From the NCBI GenBank assembly GCA_041742635.1, contig JBGSIF010000175.1:52-64051 (forward strand): 64,000 bases of DNA, given 5' to 3'. Below, piece after piece: positions 17,454 to 57,827 of the stretch (its first letter is position 1; every line of letters starts with the position of its first letter). Source of the stretch: Phycisphaerales bacterium. GTDB taxonomy: Bacteria > Planctomycetota > Phycisphaerae > Phycisphaerales > UBA1924. The notes beneath the pieces are model-generated. The model had not been told where the DNA came from and did no database searches. It saw only the letters and a list, made by a program, of their open reading frames with translations. Both the position numbers and the translations under genes were made by a program.

Positions 17454-19763
17454 GTGAAGATGAAATCTCGTATGAATAGCGGCGTGGTGCGTAGAACGAA
17501 GCGGCGGATGATCGGGCACGACGTCGGCGCGACGCCGGTGCTGGAAATGCTGGAGGCCCGCGCGCTGTTCGCGGGGGACTTCGCCAGCGTGGGGATGCGG
17601 TTCGAGACGTTCGGGTTCGGGAACCTGGATGGGGACGTATTCATCTCCGAAGGGTTCATAGACGACTCGCTGAGCACGTTCGGAGATGTGTTTTCGAGTG
17701 GATCGTTGGACCGGGTGCGGGTGGACACGCTGCCGTACGACTTTATCGAGCAGAGCGCGGACGGACGGTATGTGCGGCATCCTGATCGCGGGTCGTTCGG
17801 GGTGCCTGTGGAATCGAACGGGGCACGATTTTTGGATGCGGACGGATTCCCGGTGGGGTGGTGGTACGGAGACTTCGGTGGCGGGGACAAGGAAGCGGAG
17901 TTCATCGTGGAGCGGCCGGAGAACGCTGAGTACAGCGACTTCGTGGGGGAATGGCGGTTCAGCATGTTGACGATGGACGTCGGGGACGAAGACTTCGACA
18001 ACGGGTACGGGTTGCTGTCGATCGACTTTGATGACGTGCGGTTTGTGAGAGATTCGGGACGGGTGCCGCACACGATCAGCGCGATCGACGTGGTGACGGA
18101 TCGTGGGCGGCTGACGACGGAAGCGGGGGAGTATTTTTACCTGAGCAAGGACAAGTCGGTGATGATCTTCGCGGACATGGCGGAGAACGACGGGGCGGTT
18201 TCGATCGGGGTGGCGGTGCGGACGTCGCCCGCGTTATCGCGGGACGAACTCGTGGGCGGGTACCTGCTGCAGTGGGCGTTCGCGGACACACCGGCGGCGG
18301 ATGGGGCCAACGGGGAGGTGGACTTCCGACAGCGGTTCCTGAGTCTGGAAGCCGACGGGGATTACCGGATCTGGGATTTGGACGATTGGGACTCGGGGCG
18401 GGACGAGAACGAGTACGCGATCTCGCGTGGGTTCTGGCGTGTGTCGGGGAATCGGTTGATATTGGAAAGAAGGGATTCGGACGATGTGGTGGTGATGGGG
18501 GTGTCGCCGAACGGTTCGACGCTGGTGGCGTTGTCGCTGGATGATGGGGAGATATTCAGCCCGGTGTTGGGTGTGGGAACGCGGGCGTTCCCGAACGGGA
18601 TTGTGCCGCCCCCGCCAAGCGGGGTGGACGCGGTGATCGCGGTGCCGGCGGCGGGCGAGTTCGGAAGGCCGCTGGTGTACGCGCTGGGGACGGACTACGT
18701 GTGGGAAGTGGTGGACCTGATCCGCGAAGCGGGTGGACCGACGCCGACGGGCGGTGCCGGTGATGTGGCGACGTGGATCGATACGAAGGACGGGCGCACG
18801 TATGCGGCGGCGACGAGCGCGCAGGGCCTGGTGTTGTACTCGCAGCCGAGCAGCGGGAACTGGACGTACCGGATTTTGACGAGTGAGATAGCGGGGGCGA
18901 ACGCGATCGTGGGCGGGGCGGAAGGCGGCGGCGTGCAGGTGATGACCAGCCCGGACGGGATGGTCCATATCACCGGCTTGAACGCGGCTGGGGATGTCGT
19001 GCGGTACTACCAGACGGGCGAGCGGCTCACGTCGTCGGCGGCGTTCCGGTGGTTCTTCGCCGACACAGGGGACGACCTGGCACAGGTTGGGCAACACACG
19101 CCTGTCTTCGCGGGCGGGCTGGTGAGTTACGCGACGTCGTGGGGCGGACTGAACGTCGCGGGGATCGAGGAATCGACGGGCACGATCTGGGTGGTGTGGT
19201 GGGCACCTGGGCAGACACGGTGGACGCTGACGACGCTGGCGCCGACACTGTCGCCGCCGGACTACACAGTGGCGGGCGGGCTGTCGGCGTACCTGACGCC
19301 TTGGGGCGGGATTAATTTATCGGTGATCGACACGGCGGGGGACCTTCGGGTCACATGGTGGGTGCCGGGGTTCGGGGGCAACTGGCGGCGGAGCAACCTG
19401 ACGGACGAGGTGAACGGAGGAGCCGGGCCTGCGCTGCGTCCGGACTCGATCAGCACGTATGTGTCGTCATGGGGGGGGCTGAACATCGTGGGGCTTGACG
19501 CGAGCAGCGGGGATGTGCGGGTGTATTGGTGGTCGCCGGAACGGACGAATATTGGATGGGCGGTGACGTCGCTGACAGCGGCGGTGCCGCCCGGCACGGA
19601 GCGGATCGTTGATAGCCCAATTCTGGGACGAGCCTCAGAAGACCGGAGCCTGAATGTGTTCGGGTACGCGGAGGGGGGTTCGTTTGTGCGGTACTTCTGG
19701 CTGCCGGAGTTCGGCGGTGCGTGGCAGGTGGAGGACTTGACGGCGATCGCGGTAGATCGGTGA
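17454..19763 (+). CDS. exported repeat protein, probable beta-propeller C-terminal half
   Basis: The N-terminus contains LEMLEARALFAG. The C-terminal ~300 aa carry at least 4 repeats of the form Y.(S/T).WGG(L/I)N..G.D..G...V.WW.P....W....L. Confidence 0.6.
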   Translation: MKMKSRMNSGVVRRTKRRMIGHDVGATPVLEMLEARALFAGDFASVGMRFETFGFGNLDGDVFISEGFIDDSLSTFGDVFSSGSLDRVRVDTLPYDFIEQSADGRYVRHPDRGSFGVPVESNGARFLDADGFPVGWWYGDFGGGDKEAEFIVERPENAEYSDFVGEWRFSMLTMDVGDEDFDNGYGLLSIDFDDVRFVRDSGRVPHTISAIDVVTDRGRLTTEAGEYFYLSKDKSVMIFADMAENDGAVSIGVAVRTSPALSRDELVGGYLLQWAFADTPAADGANGEVDFRQRFLSLEADGDYRIWDLDDWDSGRDENEYAISRGFWRVSGNRLILERRDSDDVVVMGVSPNGSTLVALSLDDGEIFSPVLGVGTRAFPNGIVPPPPSGVDAVIAVPAAGEFGRPLVYALGTDYVWEVVDLIREAGGPTPTGGAGDVATWIDTKDGRTYAAATSAQGLVLYSQPSSGNWTYRILTSEIAGANAIVGGAEGGGVQVMTSPDGMVHITGLNAAGDVVRYYQTGERLTSSAAFRWFFADTGDDLAQVGQHTPVFAGGLVSYATSWGGLNVAGIEESTGTIWVVWWAPGQTRWTLTTLAPTLSPPDYTVAGGLSAYLTPWGGINLSVIDTAGDLRVTWWVPGFGGNWRRSNLTDEVNGGAGPALRPDSISTYVSSWGGLNIVGLDASSGDVRVYWWSPERTNIGWAVTSLTAAVPPGTERIVDSPILGRASEDRSLNVFGYAEGGSFVRYFWLPEFGGAWQVEDLTAIAVDR

Positions 19764-19767
19764 AGTA

Positions 19768-19793
19768 GGGAAGAGATCGAGGGATCGAGGGTC
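19768..19793. repeat. octamer-repeat remnant (GGGAAGAGATCGAGGGATCGAGGGTC)
   Basis: Lies in the 42-bp spacer between convergent genes. It has the same GAAG(G/A)GATCGAGGGATCGAGG lead as the elements in leuS and uvrC. Confidence 0.6.
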
Positions 19794-24137: not shown

Positions 24138-27100
24138 ATGTCGATTCCGATCGAACCGCCGAGCACGCCGAGTACGACCCCGCACAGCACGACCGAGCAG
24201 CCGCGGTTTCGGTATACCGCCGCGCTCGCGGACGACATCGAAACACGGTGGCAGCAGGAGTGGGACCAGCGGCAGACGTTCCGTCAACCCAACCCTGGCG
24301 AAACGGGGTTCGACGGGACGAAGCCGAAGTTCTATTGCCTCGATATGTTTCCCTACCCATCGGGCGCGGGCCTGCACGTCGGCCATCCCGAGGGGTACAC
24401 GGCAACGGACATCCTGTGCCGGTATAAGCGGATGCAGGGATTCAACGTGCTGCACCCGATGGGGTGGGATGCGTTCGGCTTGCCCGCCGAGCAATACGCG
24501 ATCCAGACCGGCATCCACCCCGCGATCACCACGCGCACTGCGATCGACAACTTCCGCCGACAACTCAAACGGTTCGGGTTCAGTTATGATTGGTCGCGTG
24601 AGTTCGGCACCATCGACCCGACGTACTACAAGTGGACCCAGTGGATCTTCTTGCAGTTGTACGGGGCGTGGATGTGTGAAGAAGGGATCGAGGGATCGAG
24701 GGATCGAGGGATCGAGGGGAGAGCGCGACCGATTTCTGAGTTGTTGGCCAAGTTGGAGCGCGGCGAGATTGCGGCGCAGGTGAACCCGAAGGCGGCGGAG
24801 GTAAAGCCGCTCTCGCCCGCGCCGACGAGTTGGGCCGCGGCGACCGCCGAAGAACGACGCACGATCATCGACAGTTACCGGCTGGCGTATCTGGGGGAGC
24901 AAACGGTGAACTGGTGCCCAAGGCTCGGCACGGTTTTGGCGAACGATGAAGTGATCGACGGACGGAGCGAGCGTGGCGGGCATCCGGTGCTGCGCAAGCC
25001 GCTGAAGCAGTGGACCTTCCGGATCACGGCTTACGCCGAGCGTTTGCTGGGCGGCTTAAAGAAACTCGATTGGCCCGAATCAACGAAAGCGATGCAGTCG
25101 GAGTGGATCGGGCGCAGCGAAGGGGCGGAGATTGAGTTTGAGTTGGAAGGTGAGAAGGCATCAATCCGCGTCTTCACCACCCGCCCCGATACGGTCTTCG
25201 GCGCGACCTACATGGGTGTCGCGCCGGAGCATCCGCTGGTGAGCCGCATCATTGCTTCGCCCGCCGCGGAGACGTGCGTACCCGCGCTGCGCGCGTACGT
25301 CGATCGGACCAAGAGCCGATCGGACATCGAGCGGATGGAGAGCAAGGAAAAGACGGGGGTCTTCACCGGCGTGTACGCCATCAACCCGGCGACCCGCCAG
25401 CGGATCCCGGTCTGGGTGGCGGACTACGTCTTGATGGGCTACGGGCACGGGGCGATCATGGCGGTGCCGGCGCACGACGAACGCGACTTCGAGTTCGCCG
25501 TCAAGTTCGGGCTCCCGATCCGCGATGTGGTCTACCCGAGGGTGCAACTGGCGATGGCACACTTTGCGAAGTACGCGCCCGCGGAGGTGCGCACGAACGA
25601 GCGATGGACGGGGGTGCTGGCGGACTTCCTGGGGTGGATCACGAGCAACAACGCCGGTGCGGAGCGGTTCGGGGAAGGGCTGGGGGTGGTGACATCGCGC
25701 CGCCATCCGCCGATGGGTGGGACGGCGGTGCAGATCCACAGTGCCGAAGCGCCGCCGATCGAGCGACCGGGTTCAATCGGCGAACGCCGGGGCGTATCGA
25801 GCATCCAATGGCTCGACGCGATTGCCGAGATGAAGTTCGCGGGGATCGACGATTTCACGGCTCGTTTCCAACACGGTCGGTTGTTTGTGACGTTGGGCGA
25901 AGCGTTCGTCGGCGCCGGGAACGAAGGCACCCTAGTGAACTCCGCGAATGACGAAGTGTCACTCGACGGGCTGCATGTAGACGCGGCGAAAACAACGATT
26001 GTGGACTGGCTGGATCGAACGAAGGTGGGAAATAAACGTGTGAACTATCGACTGCGCGATTGGACGTTCAGCCGGCAACGGTACTGGGGCGAGCCGTTCC
26101 CGATCGTGTTTGATGCGCACGGGAACCACTATCCGGTGAGCGATTCGGCGTTGCCGGTGGTGCTACCGGAGTTGGCGGATTACGCGCCGGTGGAGAGCGA
26201 AGACCCGATGCCGCTGCTGGCCAAAGCGACGATGTGGATGAACACGACGGCGGGGGCCGCCGGAGTATCGTCGGCGTTGTTGGCGCCCGAGGCACCGGTG
26301 CGGCGTGAGAGCAACACCATGCCCGGCAGCGCGGGGAGTTCGTGGTACGCCATCCGATACTGCGATCCGAAGAACGATGGCAGGTTTGTAAGTAAAACGG
26401 CAGATCGGTATTGGATGGGGGATGGGTACGCCGGCGTCGATCAATACATGGGCGGATCGGAGCACGCCGTGGGGCACTTGCTGTATTCGCGGTTCTGGCA
26501 CATGGTGCTGCACGACCTGGGGCATGTGAGCACGATGGAGCCGTTCGAGCGTTTGTTCCATCAGGGGCTGATCACGAGTTTCGCGTACCAGCGAAAAGAC
26601 AAGACGCTCGTTGCGACGGACTTGGTGGAAGAAACAGGCGAAGGGAAGTTCGTCGAGCGAGCGACGGGGCAACCGGTGACGCAGATCGTGGCGAAGATGT
26701 CCAAGTCCCTCAAAAACGTCGTCAACCCCGACGACATCATCAACGAGTTCGGGGCGGACACGTTCCGACTGTACGAGATGTACATGGGACCGCTGGAAGC
26801 GACCAAACCCTGGAACACACGCGACATCGTGGGGTTGCAGCGATTCTTGCAGCGTCTGTGGCGGGTGACGGTGAACGAGCAGACCGGCGAACTGAAGATC
26901 GCAACGGCAGGGAGCGAAACCGTCGAGCGACAGATGCACAAAGCGATCGCCAAAGTGGGGCCGGATATCGAGCGGATGGCGTTCAACACGGGGATCGCCG
27001 CGCTGATCGAGTTTGTGAACGTGGCGACGAAGGAAGCCGGGGAATCAGCGGGGTCGGCGTCACTCACACGGGATCAGATCGATCGGCTGGCGCGGATCAT

Positions 27101-27401
27101 CGCGCCGTTCACGCCGCACATCGCGGAGGAACTGTGGCGGAAACTGGGCAACACGGAGCCGATCGCGTATGCGTCGTGGCCGGTGGCAGACCCGGCGATG
27201 ATCGCGGAAGAGACCGTGGAGATCGCGGTGCAGATCGCAGGGAAAGTGCGCGCGAAACTCAACGTACCGGCGGGTATGGACGAAAAGACGCTGGAAGCCG
27301 CCGCGATGGCAGACGAAAAAATAAAGGCGATGCTGGAAGGCAAGACGGTGAAGAAGGTAATCGTCGTGAAAGGGAAACTGGTGAACATAGTGGCCGTGTG
27401 A
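24138..27401 (+). CDS. leuS: leucine--tRNA ligase (enlarged, 1087 aa)
   Basis: HIGH motif (LHVGHPEGY), KMSKS (KMSKSLKN), editing-domain AHDERDFEFA, YRLRDWTFSRQRYWGEPFP. Confidence 0.95.
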   Translation: MSIPIEPPSTPSTTPHSTTEQPRFRYTAALADDIETRWQQEWDQRQTFRQPNPGETGFDGTKPKFYCLDMFPYPSGAGLHVGHPEGYTATDILCRYKRMQGFNVLHPMGWDAFGLPAEQYAIQTGIHPAITTRTAIDNFRRQLKRFGFSYDWSREFGTIDPTYYKWTQWIFLQLYGAWMCEEGIEGSRDRGIEGRARPISELLAKLERGEIAAQVNPKAAEVKPLSPAPTSWAAATAEERRTIIDSYRLAYLGEQTVNWCPRLGTVLANDEVIDGRSERGGHPVLRKPLKQWTFRITAYAERLLGGLKKLDWPESTKAMQSEWIGRSEGAEIEFELEGEKASIRVFTTRPDTVFGATYMGVAPEHPLVSRIIASPAAETCVPALRAYVDRTKSRSDIERMESKEKTGVFTGVYAINPATRQRIPVWVADYVLMGYGHGAIMAVPAHDERDFEFAVKFGLPIRDVVYPRVQLAMAHFAKYAPAEVRTNERWTGVLADFLGWITSNNAGAERFGEGLGVVTSRRHPPMGGTAVQIHSAEAPPIERPGSIGERRGVSSIQWLDAIAEMKFAGIDDFTARFQHGRLFVTLGEAFVGAGNEGTLVNSANDEVSLDGLHVDAAKTTIVDWLDRTKVGNKRVNYRLRDWTFSRQRYWGEPFPIVFDAHGNHYPVSDSALPVVLPELADYAPVESEDPMPLLAKATMWMNTTAGAAGVSSALLAPEAPVRRESNTMPGSAGSSWYAIRYCDPKNDGRFVSKTADRYWMGDGYAGVDQYMGGSEHAVGHLLYSRFWHMVLHDLGHVSTMEPFERLFHQGLITSFAYQRKDKTLVATDLVEETGEGKFVERATGQPVTQIVAKMSKSLKNVVNPDDIINEFGADTFRLYEMYMGPLEATKPWNTRDIVGLQRFLQRLWRVTVNEQTGELKIATAGSETVERQMHKAIAKVGPDIERMAFNTGIAALIEFVNVATKEAGESAGSASLTRDQIDRLARIIAPFTPHIAEELWRKLGNTEPIAYASWPVADPAMIAEETVEIAVQIAGKVRAKLNVPAGMDEKTLEAAAMADEKIKAMLEGKTVKKVIVVKGKLVNIVAV
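24684..24715 (+). repeat. four perfect tandem GGGATCGA octamers inside leuS
   Basis: Read directly. Translated in-frame as part of EEGIEGSRDRGIEGRARP. Confidence 0.9.
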
Positions 27402-39245: not shown

Positions 39246-40766
39246 TCACTCCTCCAGTGTCTTCTTCCGCCGCAGCACATGGTGATAGTGCTGCGCGAAC
39301 CGGTGCGCCTCGTCCCGAATCGCCTGCACCAGCCGAAGCCCCGCGTTCTCACGCCCCAGTTTCACCGGCTCCTTCCGTTCCTGCACATAAATCAACTCTT
39401 CCTTCTTCGCCAGGCTAATCACCATCGGCGGCTTGATGTTCAACTCCGCGAACGCCTCTTGCGCCGCGTGCAACTGACCCAGCCCGCCGTCGATCAGGAT
39501 CACATCCGGGTACAACTCCTGCCCATCCCCGGCGTCCCGGTACCGACGCGAGATCACCTCGCGAAGACTCTCATAATCGTCGTTGATTGAGGAAGGGATC
39601 GAGGCACGAGGGATCAAGGGATCAAGCGCGGAGAAGGAGTCACTGCCCTTCTTACTCCCACTTGATCCCTTGATCCCTCGATCCCTTGATCCCTTCCCAC
39701 CAATCCTGAACCGCCGATACTCGCTCTTCAGCGGCCGCCCATCCACGAAACACACCTTGCTCGCCACCGTCTCGCCCCCTTGCAGGTGCGCGATATCGAA
39801 CCCCTCGATGCACCTGATCTCCGCGCTCAGCCCCAGCACCTTCTGAAGACTCTTCAGCCCCTTCTTGGGGTCCAGGTACGACACTTCCGTCTCCGGCTGC
39901 CAACCGTCCGATCGCTTCGCCCGCTCGTCCAGCCGTTCGATCGCCCGGATCTGATCCCGAAGCCCCGCGGCTTTCTCGAAGTTCAACCCCTTCGACGCCG
40001 ACTCCATTTCCGATCGCAACTCGCGCAGCGTCTCGGCCCGCTTGTTCGAGATGAACTTCACAAAGCGTTCCGAGTCCGCCCGATACGCCTCCTTGCCGAT
40101 CTTCGCCGCGCACGGCGCGCTGCATTGCCCGATCGCGTGCAGGATGCACGGGCGGAAATACTTGTTCTTCTCGTCCCCGTCGATGATGTCCAGATGGCAC
40201 GTCCGGAACTTGAAGATCCGCTGCGCGATCTGCACCGCGTACTTCAGCGACTTCACGCTCACGAACGGCCCGAACACCCGCGCCCCCTTCAGTTCCGGCG
40301 ACGACGGCTCCCGCGTCACTATCACCCGCGGGAAATCCTCTCCCATCGTCACGGCCAGGTACGGAAACGTCTTGTCGTCCGTCAGCCGCGTATTGAACCG
40401 CGGGCGGATGTCCTTAATCAGCCGGTTCTCGGTGAGCAGCGCCTCCCACTCCCCGTCGCACAGCAAGTAGTCCACATCATGCACGACCTCGAGCATCGGC
40501 TGCTTCTTGAACCCCAGTTCGGTGGACGCGACGAAGTACGACGCGACCCGGTCGCACAGCCGCAGCGCCTTGCCGACGTACACCACGACGCCCTTGTGGT
40601 CTTTCATCAGGTACACGCCGGGGCGGTCGGGTAGGTTCCGCGCCTTGGCCCCCAGCCGCCCCAGCCGCTGCTCGCGCGTCTCCGACCCCCACCCCGGCGG
40701 GGCGTCCGAGGGCAAGAAACCGTCGGCGTCGGTCAACATGTGGTCGGCATCGTCCGGCACCCACAA
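39246..40766 (-). CDS. uvrC: excinuclease ABC subunit C (short form, no C-terminal HhH region seen)
   Basis: GIY-YIG (PGVYLMKDHKGVVVYVGKA), a UVR-like helix region, YRRFRI...DDYESLREVISRRY, DGGLGQL and DEAHRFA. The ORF stops ~15 aa after EAHRFA. Confidence 0.85.
   Translation of the reverse strand: MWVPDDADHMLTDADGFLPSDAPPGWGSETREQRLGRLGAKARNLPDRPGVYLMKDHKGVVVYVGKALRLCDRVASYFVASTELGFKKQPMLEVVHDVDYLLCDGEWEALLTENRLIKDIRPRFNTRLTDDKTFPYLAVTMGEDFPRVIVTREPSSPELKGARVFGPFVSVKSLKYAVQIAQRIFKFRTCHLDIIDGDEKNKYFRPCILHAIGQCSAPCAAKIGKEAYRADSERFVKFISNKRAETLRELRSEMESASKGLNFEKAAGLRDQIRAIERLDERAKRSDGWQPETEVSYLDPKKGLKSLQKVLGLSAEIRCIEGFDIAHLQGGETVASKVCFVDGRPLKSEYRRFRIGGKGSRDRGIKGSSGSKKGSDSFSALDPLIPRASIPSSINDDYESLREVISRRYRDAGDGQELYPDVILIDGGLGQLHAAQEAFAELNIKPPMVISLAKKEELIYVQERKEPVKLGRENAGLRLVQAIRDEAHRFAQHYHHVLRRKKTLEE
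39591..39697. repeat. ~107-bp palindromic element made of GGGATC(G/A)A octamers, in-frame inside uvrC
   Basis: Left arm 39591-39626 and right arm 39661-39697 are near-perfect inverted repeats (one octamer degenerate). The 34-nt spacer carries its own short stem (AGAAGG/CCTTCT). Confidence 0.9.
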
Positions 40767-56231: not shown

Positions 56232-56717
56232 TTAGCGGCATCGCTCGATGAGATCGACTTCGTGCCGGTGTGTGAGCCGACGCTGGGCTTCTTCGATCGT
56301 TGCCCACAGCATTACATCCACTTCATCATTGGGCACGAAGCGACCGGGGCCGACGAGGGTCATGTGCCAGTAAAATACAAACTTCGCGGAGCCTTTGACG
56401 GTGTATCGAACAATGTCCCCGAAGGGACCGAGCGCGACATGGCAACCGGTCTCTTCGAAGATTTCACGCACGGCACAGGCTTCGAGGGTTTCGCCCGGCT
56501 CCCACTTGCCCTTGGGCATCGACCAATCGTCATAACGTGGGCGGTGGACGATGCACAACCGCTCGCGGGCCTCGGTTTCCCAGAGCATCCCGCCCGCGGC
56601 GAGGATCACGCGAGACGACGCCGACAGTATCGATATCGCGCCGGGATCGGTCGGTGGGGTGGGGCGAGATGCCGACCCAGCGGGGTTTTCGTCGGCCGGG
56701 GTTGAGCGTGCCTTCAT
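56232..56717 (-). CDS. NUDIX hydrolase
   Basis: Nudix box: [22 protein letters not shown]. Confidence 0.85.
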
Positions 56718-56763
56718 GCCTACATTATCCCAGCGGCACGCGCGGCTGGAATCTCACGTCATC

Positions 56764-57624
56764 ATGCACACTCACACCGATTCAAACTCGTCATCGCTCG
56801 TGATTGCCGAGCGCTCATTCCGCTCGCGCCTCATCGTGGGTACGGGGAAATATTCGAGTTTCGATGTCATGCGTCAATCGCTCGAAGCGTCTGGCACACA
56901 GGTCGTAACCGTCGCGGTGCGGCGTGAGCGTTTGTTCAACGAGCGGGGCGAATCCCTGCTGGATCATTTGGATTTGACCAAGTACACGATCCTGCCGAAT
57001 ACCGCCGGCTGCTTTTCCGCCGACGACGCGGTGCGCGTCGCAAGGCTGGGGCGCGAGATCCTCTCGCAACTCAGCGGCGGCGGCGCTGGGGGGGCGGCCG
57101 GGGCCGACTGGGTGAAACTCGAAGTCCTCGCCGACAAGAAGACACTCTTGCCCGATCCCGTCGGCACGATCGAGGCGACCAAGACGCTTACCCGCGATGG
57201 GTTCCGCGTGCTCGCGTACACATCGGACGATCCGATCGCGGCGCTGCGCATCAAAGAAGCCGGGGCGGCGTGTGTCATGCCCGCCGGCTCGCCGATCGGG
57301 TCCGGGCAAGGCGTGCTGAACCCCAACAACATTGTGCTGTGCCTGGAACTGCTTAAGGCCGGCGACCCGGCGTTCCCCGTGATCGTCGATGCGGGCGTAG
57401 GTAGCGCGTCGGATGTGGCGGTGGCAATGGAACTAGGGGCGGACGCGGTGCTGCTTAACACGGCCGTAGCGCACGCGAAGCAACCGGTACTCATGGCCGA
57501 AGCGATGAAACAGGCGACGCTCGCGGGCCGCGCGTCGTACCTCGCGGGTCGCATCCCCAAGAAGTTATACGCGAGCGCCAGCAGCCCATGGGAAGGCACG
57601 ATTTCGTACATCCCAGGTGAGTGA
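56764..57624 (+). CDS. thiG: thiazole synthase
   Basis: [41 protein letters not shown] 56764 is chosen because the longer track ORF overlaps the NUDIX gene. Confidence 0.9.
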
Positions 57625-57625
57625 C

Positions 57626-57704
57626 CTGAGCCGTGCCGCGCGAGTGGCCGGTCTTCGTGTATTGCATGACAAACAAGACCGAGGGCTTGCGCCCTGCGGC
57701 TCAG
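57626..57704 (+). repeat. REP-like inverted hairpin pair, copy A
   Basis: CTGAGCCGTGCCGCGCGAGTGGCCGGTCTTCG...CAAGACCGAGGGCTTGCGCCCTGCGGCTCAG. It starts 2 nt after the thiG stop. Confidence 0.9.
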
Positions 57705-57705
57705 T

Positions 57706-57784
57706 CTGAGCCGTGCCGCGCAAGCGGCCGGTCTTCGCATCTCAGTTGACCAACAAGACCGAGGGCTTGCGCCCTGCGGCACAG
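57706..57784 (+). repeat. REP-like inverted hairpin pair, copy B
   Basis: Same arms as copy A with a few substitutions and a different central ~18 nt. Confidence 0.9.
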
Positions 57785-57827
57785 GCTGGTATACTCAGAA
57801 ATAGGGTCGCACCCGCTCGCGTACTTC

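What the first reader, a model, noticed from the sequence alone, without database searches (positions are those of the whole stretch)
39591..39697. Palindromic ~107-bp repeat element sitting in-frame inside uvrC
Two near-perfect inverted arms lie wholly inside the uvrC reading frame. The left arm, 39591-39626, is GGAAGGGATCGAGGCACGAGGGATCAAGGGATCAAG. The reverse complement of the right arm, 39661-39697, is GGAAGGGATCAAGGGATCGAGGGATCAAGGGATCAAG. Both are built from GGGATC(G/A)A octamers. The 34-nt spacer has its own short stem.

The element is translated as GGKGSRDRGIKGSSGSKKGSDSFSALDPLIPRASIPSS, between the conserved YRRFRI and DDYESLREVISRRY motifs. As I remember canonical UvrC, only a handful of residues separate those motifs, so this looks like an insertion of about 33-35 codons that preserves the frame of an essential repair gene.

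This is the behaviour known for Rickettsia palindromic elements. I am not aware of a description for this kind of GC-rich (planctomycete-like) genome.
Basis: partly seen in the sequence, partly recalled or inferred. Interest (0 to 1): 0.7.

Follow-up and report, generated by a model that had tools for sequence, protein, structure and literature searches.

The report
Octamer-repeat palindrome translated inside uvrC
A 107-bp hairpin-forming stretch built from 8-base repeats sits in frame inside the DNA-repair gene uvrC of a hot-spring planctomycete, and it is one copy of a previously undescribed repeat family that also sits inside many other housekeeping genes of that bacterial order.

Summary
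Window 39591-39697 is a near-perfect palindrome of GGGATCRA octamers (RNA fold -84.7 kcal/mol, z -9.65). It lies in frame in uvrC (39246-40766, minus strand). It adds about 35 residues where solved UvrC structures have 4-7, in a loop that AlphaFold2 predicts to be disordered. An independent assembly reproduces it exactly.

It belongs to a dispersed family of (GGSATCRA)n arrays. A scan of one genome per species returned 118 loci, 83 of them from Phycisphaerales or other Planctomycetota. Arrays occur alone or as inverted pairs. They lie in frame in valS, pheS, carB, radA, thiC, lpxB, topoisomerase VI-B and others, and in this window in leuS. Each genome prefers one unit variant (GGG or GGC). All 26 paired arrays have the same polarity. 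Only the arms are shared; the spacers are unrelated.

Diverged UvrC orthologs (62-81% identity) carry such palindromes at the same codon position, with lineage-specific units. So this site is either old or a hotspot, and its arrays keep turning over.

My best reading is a selfish or neutral passenger that behaves like Rickettsia palindromic elements but has a different architecture. I found no published description. How it spreads is unresolved.

The parts
39246..40766 (-). uvrC coding sequence (506 aa from a TTG start; the database protein P0001 is a 497-aa start variant). It has GIY-YIG, UVR and RNase H-like endonuclease domains but no C-terminal HhH2 domain.
   Evidence: ORF list; PDB hits 2nrt, 3c65 and 1yd6; Pfam PF08459 and PF02151; orthologs named excinuclease ABC subunit C.
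39591..39697 (.). Palindromic octamer-array element, translated in frame as roughly GKGSRDRGIKGSSGSKKGSDSFSALDPLIPRASIPSS.
   Evidence: dG -84.7 kcal/mol, z -9.65; translation; AlphaFold2 pLDDT below 50 and coil over P0001 residues 349-385.
39661..39697 (-). 5' arm in gene sense: GGAA leader plus four GGGATCRA units. It encodes GKGSRDRGIKGSS.
   Evidence: period 8, 4.4 copies, 92% matches.
39627..39660 (.). Unique 34-nt spacer with its own short stem. It is not similar to the spacers of other copies.
   Evidence: Fold; spacer comparison across 26 paired elements.
39591..39626 (+). 3' arm in gene sense (G-rich on the + strand): GGAA leader plus units, one of them irregular (GGCACGA). Read antisense it encodes ALDPLIPRASIPSS.
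24683..24718 (+). Solo array of 4.5 perfect AGGGATCG units, in frame inside leuS (24138-27401, +). It encodes EGIEGSRDRGIEG. About 35 readable LeuRS orthologs lack it.
   Evidence: metagenome word depth of 343-607 on the array against 13 on the flanks.
19761..19791 (+). Leader TGAAGTAGGGAA followed by about 2.4 units (GAGATCGAGGGATCGAGGG). The TGA of the leader is the stop codon of ORF 17454-19763.
   Evidence: the same (G)AGTAGGGGAA leader sits at a fixed distance in 9 of 104 arrays.

Best explanation
The feature is one copy of a lineage-restricted family of short interspersed repeats made of tandem GGSATCRA octamers. The family is found mainly in Phycisphaerales (Planctomycetota).

Architecture. 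Copies occur as solo arrays or as two arrays in inverted orientation around an arbitrary spacer. The inverted form can fold into a long hairpin.

Why coding copies survive. The unit has period 8 and no stop codon in any frame of its G-rich strand. Any frame therefore reads (G-I-E/K-G-S-R-D-R/Q)n. The C-rich strand reads (S-I-P-R-S-L-D-P)n and stays open as long as the TTGA variant avoids the in-frame phase. A copy that lands in a tolerant loop with a total length divisible by three leaves the gene functional.

In uvrC. The copy is transcribed and translated as a low-complexity loop of about 35 residues, predicted to be disordered. The loop lies between a beta-strand (YRRFRI) and the following helix (DDYES...) of the RNase H-like 5'-incision domain. 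The element has no dedicated role there. It is a tolerated selfish or neutral passenger.

Spread and persistence. The arrays are copied or converted between loci within a genome, which is why each genome has its own preferred unit. They gain and lose units by slippage. A site once occupied stays occupied and is remodelled for a long time.

Shown: the anatomy, the in-frame position, the family and its distribution, the genome-specific units, the fixed polarity, the persistence at the orthologous site, and the predicted disorder.

Inferred: that the segment is translated, that it is functionally neutral, and that arrays spread by copying. The enzyme or pathway that copies them is unknown.
For: Anatomy and chance.

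In-frame insertion in UvrC.

The gene is still under selection. The residues I take to be the catalytic triad, D315, D417 and H479 (P0001 numbering), are invariant in all 58 aligned orthologs whether or not they carry an insert.

Predicted disorder: pLDDT of about 28-31 and coil over residues 349-385, between strand 342-346 and helix 388-403.

Family and distribution. In the source metagenome the arms have 25-45 times the word depth of the flanks, and many contigs with unrelated flanks carry them.

In frame in real genes: ValRS, AcrB, Ser/Thr kinases, RadA, lipoyl synthase, TopoVI-B (two sites), a transketolase-like protein, LpxB, ThiC, CarB, T2SS-E, PheRS-alpha and an aldehyde dehydrogenase, plus LeuRS in the window.

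Location bias. About 45% of arrays lie in coding-like ORFs, against 84% for random positions. Arrays are depleted from genes but far from excluded.

Copying between loci. Unit type (GGG or GGC) is genome-specific: chi-square 178, p = 2e-27. Locus pairs agree 48/62 within genomes and 733/1478 between genomes. A shared (G)AGTAGGGGAA leader lies at a fixed offset in 9 of 104 arrays against a 1% background.

Fixed polarity: 26 of 26 array pairs within 150 nt read (GGSATCRA)n...(TYGATSCC)n, and none the reverse.

Slippage. The orthologous hairpins L029 and L104 share a spacer but have 6+4 and 4+3 units.

Passenger rather than function. Spacers are unrelated. The closest relative, L001, has a decayed arm (dG -33, z -0.1). 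L207 has GGC units in one arm and GGG units in the other (z -2.2). Many members of the same UvrC clade keep only short Gly-rich remnants of the form KG...GIN.
Against: No transposase, no target-site duplication and no conserved full-length consensus were found. Mobility is therefore inferred only from distribution and homogeneity.

In about 750 kb of DNA around uvrC orthologs, the only arrays of 3 or more units are the uvrC ones and the window's leuS array. The uvrC site is thus occupied far more often than array density predicts. That fits long persistence or a hotspot, but it also leaves room for a uvrC-specific role.

Eight of the nine lineages that still have two arms show hairpin z-scores from -3 to -13, despite about 65-80% protein identity between them. 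A purely neutral relic would not keep that pairing without ongoing homogenisation.

There are no RNA or protein data, so translation of the segment is assumed from the open frame and the conserved downstream domain.
Confidence: 0.62

Rival explanations
1. The uvrC palindrome is a conserved functional structure specific to this gene. It could be an mRNA or DNA hairpin that tunes uvrC expression. Or it could be a slippage-prone 8-nt tract that lets nucleotide-excision repair switch off and on by frameshift, as a mutator contingency locus.
For: The same codon position is occupied by a hairpin-forming palindrome in 9 of 10 lineages read, window included, with lineage-specific units in both arms. 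The site is the only array-bearing place in 6-21 kb around uvrC in six lineages. A unit length of 8 is not divisible by 3, so gain or loss of a single unit would shift the frame.
Against: The hairpin is lost or decayed in the closest relative (L001) and in most members of the clade. The arms of L207 use different units. Spacers and arm lengths are not conserved. Identical arrays sit in essential genes (leuS, valS, pheS, carB), where on/off switching would be lethal. Another orthologous site, L029/L104, also keeps its hairpin, so persistence is not unique to uvrC. Metagenome contigs show no length variants, though contigs hide rare variants.
Confidence: 0.12
2. There is no mobility at all. Each array arose locally by replication slippage of a chance proto-repeat. 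Palindromes arose by local inverted duplication (template switching). Similarity between loci reflects a genome-wide mutational or codon bias.
For: Arrays differ in unit number between orthologous loci. Unit variants drift within arrays: GGGAGCRG units in L134 and L004. No target-site duplications or transposase were found.
Against: I tested whether empty uvrC sites resemble the unit. They do not: the site window ranks at the median 27th percentile within its own gene. The same 8-mer with the same leader recurs at dozens of unrelated loci and is homogenised within genomes. Local fold-back should give both polarities, yet pairs are 26:0. The pattern is strongly concentrated in one order among 185,579 species genomes.
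Confidence: 0.18
3. It is a sequencing or assembly artefact, such as a chimeric fold-back or a collapsed repeat.
For: Palindromes and short tandem repeats are classic sources of assembly error. Logan contigs of runs X1 and X2 do break inside the arrays.
Against: An independent contig spans the whole element with no differences. The reading frame of a conserved gene is preserved. The same architecture is found in uvrC from unrelated samples and assemblers.
Confidence: 0.01

Closest known systems
Rickettsia palindromic elements (RPEs; described in the review PMC10969869 with its references 63 and 64)
   Same: Palindromic elements of about 100-150 bp, dispersed in the genome. They are often inserted in frame into unrelated housekeeping genes without destroying them, and they add a peptide segment at a structurally tolerant position.
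   Different: RPE families have a conserved consensus and a conserved peptide along the whole element. Here only the arms (tandem octamers) and a short leader are shared, and the spacers are arbitrary. The host is a free-living GC-rich planctomycete rather than a reduced AT-rich intracellular genome. Solo arrays outnumber palindromes. One site persists across a whole subclade while its units turn over.
REP / REPIN elements mobilised by RAYT transposases (PMC3337134, PMC3733652)
   Same: Two repeats in fixed inverted orientation around a spacer form a long hairpin, and singletons are common. The populations are lineage-restricted, vertically persistent and homogenised within a genome. A GTAG-containing tag lies 5' of some copies.
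   Different: REPs are extragenic, are 20-40-nt imperfect palindromes in themselves, and have conserved spacers within a family. Here each arm is a non-palindromic tandem array. Nearly half of the copies are intragenic, spacers are unrelated, and no RAYT could be looked for.
Bacterial MITEs that create in-frame fusions (intragenic ERIC, BOX, Nezha-type elements; PMC10969869, PMC2229807)
   Same: Short non-autonomous elements with terminal inverted repeats, found both between and within genes, and able to be read through.
   Different: No target-site duplication was found, there is no conserved internal sequence, and no parent IS is known. The terminal repeats are themselves variable-number tandem repeats.
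Dispersed octameric VNTRs and coding contingency repeats (for example the Brucella 'HOOF-print' octamer loci, PMC1183211)
   Same: An 8-bp unit is tandemly repeated at several genomic loci, and copy number differs between related genomes.
   Different: The Brucella loci are typing markers. As far as I know they are not reported as inverted pairs or as in-frame parts of essential genes. Here no strain-level length variation has yet been observed.

Membership tests
Rickettsia palindromic elements (RPE) | Palindromic element of about 100-150 bp | tested here: met
   107 bp, dG -84.7 kcal/mol, z -9.65.
Rickettsia palindromic elements (RPE) | In-frame insertion into several unrelated protein-coding genes | tested here: met
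   uvrC and leuS in the window. At least 13 further gene families in other Phycisphaerales.
Rickettsia palindromic elements (RPE) | Copies share a family consensus and a conserved encoded peptide along the whole element | tested here: not met
   Only the octamer arms and a short leader are shared. Spacers of 9-139 nt are unrelated between loci.
Rickettsia palindromic elements (RPE) | Sequence homology to RPE-1 to RPE-10; Rickettsiales host | not tested
   No RPE sequences were compared. The host is Phycisphaerales, judged from its nearest named relatives.
MITE | Terminal inverted repeats | tested here: met
   The arms are inverted copies, with GGAAGG...CCTTCC ends.
MITE | Target-site duplication flanking the element | tested here: not met
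   No consistent direct repeat lies outside the palindrome in 21 paired elements. A flanking ATC...ATC at uvrC is explainable as unit remnants.
MITE | Conserved internal sequence derived from a parent insertion sequence | tested here: not met
   Spacers are unrelated. No parent IS was identified.
REP / REPIN | Two repeats in fixed inverted orientation around a spacer, forming a hairpin | tested here: met
   26 of 26 pairs are convergent and none divergent.
REP / REPIN | Extragenic location | tested here: not met
   About 45% of arrays lie in long ORFs, many with Pfam domains on both sides.
REP / REPIN | Each REP is a 20-40-nt imperfect palindrome with a GTAG or CGTC tag | tested here: inconclusive
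   A (G)AGTAGGGGAA leader is present in 9 of 104 arrays. The arrays themselves are tandem repeats, not palindromes.
REP / REPIN | Cognate single-copy RAYT (Y1 HUH) transposase in the same genome | not testable with these tools
   No complete genome of an array-bearing organism could be fetched or annotated.
Slippage-driven VNTR / contingency locus | Copy number of the tandem unit varies between related genomes | tested here: met
   The orthologous elements L029 and L104 have 6+4 and 4+3 units around the same spacer. Arm lengths differ among uvrC orthologs.
Slippage-driven VNTR / contingency locus | Frameshifting length variants within a population that switch the gene off and on | not testable with these tools
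   Only contigs, not reads, were available for the source samples. No indels were seen in them.

The most novel reading that the evidence does not exclude
The arrays are made by a dedicated, polar, template-driven activity. One candidate is a hairpin- or GTAG-recognising HUH transposase acting on single-stranded DNA. Another is repeat addition to 3' ends at DNA breaks followed by joining. Either would explain why the G-rich strand is always 5' on both sides of a pair and why each genome has its own unit. On this reading the uvrC copy is retained across the clade because 8-nt slippage gives a reversible switch of excision repair.
Probability: 0.08. Interest if true: 0.85.

Novelty: new variant of a known kind. 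Interest (0 to 1): 0.62.

Why it matters
In-frame palindromic repeats in essential genes are best known from Rickettsia, with scattered intragenic MITEs elsewhere. There they raised the question of whether selfish DNA can create new protein segments. This would be a second, independent and architecturally different case in free-living, GC-rich bacteria.

The repeat is a frame-independent, stop-free octamer. It can be read in any frame and on either strand. It occupies loops of aminoacyl-tRNA synthetases, repair proteins and biosynthetic enzymes.

The fixed polarity, the genome-specific units and the long persistence at one orthologous site give concrete handles for finding the mechanism that makes and homogenises such repeats.

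On the practical side, these arrays break short-read assemblies. That may explain why many Phycisphaerales genes, LeuRS for example, are deposited as partial. They also add low-complexity inserts that can mislead annotation and structure prediction.

Tried and rejected
1. Seed hypothesis. The native uvrC site (...ATCAAGAGCGTCGAGGGCGGC...) looked unit-like, so it might nucleate arrays. I scored all 24-nt windows of 51 empty-site orthologs against (GGSATCRA)3. The site window sits at the median 27th percentile, so it is not special. Rejected.

2. Stop-avoidance as the cause of the irregular unit in the 3' arm. Read in frame, a perfect complement of the 5' arm would not create a stop. The irregular unit changes the length by one base, which keeps the total in frame. 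The claim is dropped.

3. Target-site duplications. None is consistent across 21 paired elements.

4. More hairpin-bearing uvrC DNA from the metagenome scan. The 80 loci were almost all empty sites. They were useful as controls only.

5. RNA evidence. No RNA run holds the gene.

6. Rfam. Nothing reaches gathering score. The sub-threshold hits are generic miRNA-precursor hairpin models.

7. Phage vector. Only 7 matches in 2.9 million viral contigs.

8. Literature. Four searches by organism, concept and literal repeat strings found no description. The three literal hits are wheat marker papers.

9. Arm-to-arm covariation as evidence of selection. Unit type is concordant between arms in 8 of 9 lineages, but this is expected from genome-specific units, and L207 is discordant. 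It is not used as evidence of function.
Full report
**What is there.**
On the + strand there is a G-rich arm (39591-39626), a 34-nt spacer with its own small stem, and a C-rich arm (39661-39697). Both arms are runs of the octamer GGGATCRA. TRF gives period 8 with 4.4 copies each, and the repeat finder gives 9 inverted pairs. One unit of the left arm is irregular. As RNA the region folds at -84.7 kcal/mol (z = -9.65; no shuffle does as well). It is the only strong inverted repeat in the 64 kb. The double-unit motif occurs 9 times in the window against 0.24 expected.

**Gene context.**
The element lies inside a 506-aa minus-strand ORF (39246-40766). That ORF is UvrC. Pfam finds UvrC_RNaseH_dom (2.6e-44) and UVR. 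PDB searches hit the GIY-YIG domain (1yd6) and the C-terminal half (2nrt, 3c65). In the 2nrt alignment, query 355 pairs with chain residue 60 and query 395 with residue 65. So 39 residues stand where Thermotoga UvrC has 4.

An AlphaFold2 model built from 58 orthologs puts the insert in a coil. These are residues 349-385 of the 497-aa start variant, with pLDDT of about 28-31. The coil lies between strand 342-346 and helix 388-403. D315, D417 and H479 are invariant in all 58 sequences, with or without an insert. From the motifs and from what I know of T. maritima UvrC, I take these to be the catalytic triad of the RNase H-like domain. The gene therefore looks functional and the insert sits in a tolerant loop.

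**Not an artefact.**
The contig comes from a hot-spring metagenome. An independently assembled Logan contig covers 39485-40000 without a single difference.

**A repeat family, not a single oddity.**
Inside the window there are two more copies. A perfect 4.5-unit array lies in frame in leuS (24683-24718, peptide EGIEGSRDRGIEG). A short array follows a TGAAGTAGGGAA leader whose TGA is the stop codon of ORF 17454-19763.

In the source metagenome the arms have word depths of 220-340 (uvrC) and 343-607 (leuS), against 9-13 on the flanks. Many contigs with unrelated flanks carry them.

Of these, 83 are from MAGs labelled Phycisphaerales, Phycisphaeraceae or Planctomycetota, often several per MAG. 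The other 35 are scattered. Streptomyces and Burkholderia probably carry unrelated VNTRs. A few Chitinophagales, Acidobacteriota and WOR-3 MAGs have several arrays each.

Arrays lie in frame inside genes with Pfam domains on both sides. These are ValRS, AcrB, two Ser/Thr kinases, RadA, lipoyl synthase, topoisomerase VI-B (two sites), a transketolase-like enzyme, LpxB, ThiC, CarB, a T2SS ATPase, PheRS-alpha and an aldehyde dehydrogenase. By a crude ORF criterion, 45% of arrays are intragenic against 84% of random positions. Arrays are selected against in genes, but they are far from excluded.

**Rules of the family.**
- Stop-free reading. With period 8 every reading frame passes through all three phases in 24 nt. 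The G-rich strand always reads G-I-E/K-G-S-R-D-R/Q and contains no stop. The C-rich strand reads S-I-P-R-S-L-D-P. It is open unless the TTGA variant falls in phase. This follows directly from the sequence.
- Genome-specific unit. Some genomes use GGCATCRA and others GGGATCRA. Chi-square is 178 (p = 2e-27). Locus pairs agree 48/62 within genomes and 733/1478 between genomes.
- Leader. Arrays are preceded by a purine-rich leader with A at position -1 in 90%. In 9 of 104 cases the leader is (G)AGTAGGGGAA at a fixed offset, against a 1% background.
- Polarity. When two arrays lie within 150 nt they are always convergent: (GGSATCRA)n...(TYGATSCC)n in 26 cases, and never the reverse. About 17 of the 26 are independent loci.
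- Spacers. They are 9-139 nt long and unrelated in sequence. Some are terminator-like GC hairpins (L035, L084, L107).
- Unit number. It changes between orthologous copies. L029 and L104 share a spacer but have 6+4 and 4+3 units.
- No target-site duplication was found.

**The uvrC site across lineages.**
Among the 120 closest UvrC proteins (62-81% identity), most have 4-6 residues at this position (RSVEGG, RTAE). One clade has KG...GIN extensions of 8-53 residues. About 13 members of that clade show the two-arm peptide signature (GIKGSRDQ...LDPSIPRS, or GIEASRHQ...LDASMPS).

I read the DNA of nine such orthologs. Eight are clear hairpins:

| Locus | dG (kcal/mol) | z |
|---|---|---|
| L002 | -70 | -8.9 |
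| L004 | -72 | -5.4 |
| L005 | -69 | -7.8 |
| L006 | -47 | -3.1 |
| L007 | -63 | -6.2 |
| L206 | -92 | -6.5 |
| L207 | -46 | -2.2 |
| L208 | -56 | -7.0 |

The closest relative, L001 (81% identity), has a decayed 5' arm (z = -0.1). L006 and L007 use GGCATCRA in both arms. L207 uses GGC units in one arm and GGG units in the other. In about 750 kb of DNA around uvrC orthologs, the only arrays of 3 or more units are those in uvrC and the window's leuS array. The leuS array is absent from about 35 readable LeuRS orthologs.

So the uvrC site is either an old insertion whose arrays are continually remodelled, or a hotspot that is refilled. The leuS copy is young. I tested whether the empty uvrC site resembles the unit, which would explain a hotspot. 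It does not (median 27th percentile).

**Interpretation.**
The simplest account that fits all of this is a selfish or neutral repeat family. Its unit happens to be translatable in every frame, so copies survive in protein loops. Arrays are copied or converted between loci, which gives genome-specific units and a shared leader. They also slip locally.

In uvrC the copy adds a disordered loop. I see no sign of a dedicated role: spacers are not conserved, arms can decay or become discordant, many clade members keep only Gly-rich remnants, and another orthologous site keeps its hairpin too. The pairing of the arms is what two inverted arrays of the genome's own unit would give.

Two things remain unexplained. 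One is the strict polarity of pairs. The other is the unusual persistence at uvrC. Both keep a functional or mechanistically novel reading alive at low probability.

**Comparison with known systems.**
- It behaves like Rickettsia palindromic elements (PMC10969869) but fails their requirement of a conserved full-length consensus.
- It has the doublet-hairpin architecture and within-genome homogeneity of REPINs (PMC3337134). But it is not extragenic, its arms are not themselves palindromes, and a RAYT could not be sought.
- It has terminal inverted repeats like a MITE, but no target-site duplication and no conserved core.
- It shares the octamer VNTR habit of the Brucella HOOF-print loci (PMC1183211).

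Rfam has no matching family. Literature searches, including literal repeat strings, found no description. I therefore file it as a new variant of a known kind: in-frame palindromic selfish repeats.

Noticed in passing
window 57626-57788: Two tandem copies (85% identical) of an 80-nt GC-rich, internally palindromic element lie directly after the stop codon of thiG (56551-57624). The pair folds at -88.2 kcal/mol (z = -4.9). It is a different structured intergenic repeat, unrelated to the octamer family.
   Followed up: partly
window 39246-40766 and all 120 orthologs (P0001-P0120): UvrC of this Phycisphaerales group is only about 460-510 aa and ends right after the RNase H-like domain. Neither Pfam nor the PDB alignment finds the C-terminal (HhH)2 DNA-binding domain of canonical UvrC.
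   Followed up: partly
window 19761-19791; loci L015, L027, L031, L047, L050, L080, L123: A subset of arrays carries a conserved leader, (T)GA(A)GTAGGGGAA, containing TGA and TAG. In the window its TGA serves as the stop codon of ORF 17454-19763. This suggests that an element insertion can redefine a gene's 3' end.
   Followed up: partly
P0121-P0240 (LeuRS orthologs): Almost all close LeuRS relatives in the databases are annotated as partial and come from short contigs. In run X1 the contigs break exactly inside the leuS array. The repeat family probably fragments short-read assemblies of these organisms.
   Followed up: partly
L090 and L121 (Chitinophagales MAG), L082 (Saprospiraceae), L020 and L028 (Vicinamibacteraceae 'PLA1'), L081 and L103 (WOR-3): Arrays of the related units GGCAYCRA, including a convergent pair in an AT-rich context (L121), occur several times per MAG outside Planctomycetota. 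Either the family is broader than one phylum or some contigs are mis-binned.
   Followed up: no
L134 (uvrC insert) and L004 6189-6273: At the uvrC site some lineages carry arrays of a mutated unit, GGGAGCRG, in place of GGGATCRA. Whole arrays can evidently drift to a new unit.
   Followed up: no
UvrC orthologs P0014, P0015, P0022, P0034: A separate group of orthologs has inserts of 64-99 residues at the same loop, rich in acidic residues and proline and showing no octamer signature. The loop tolerates large insertions of other origins too.
   Followed up: no
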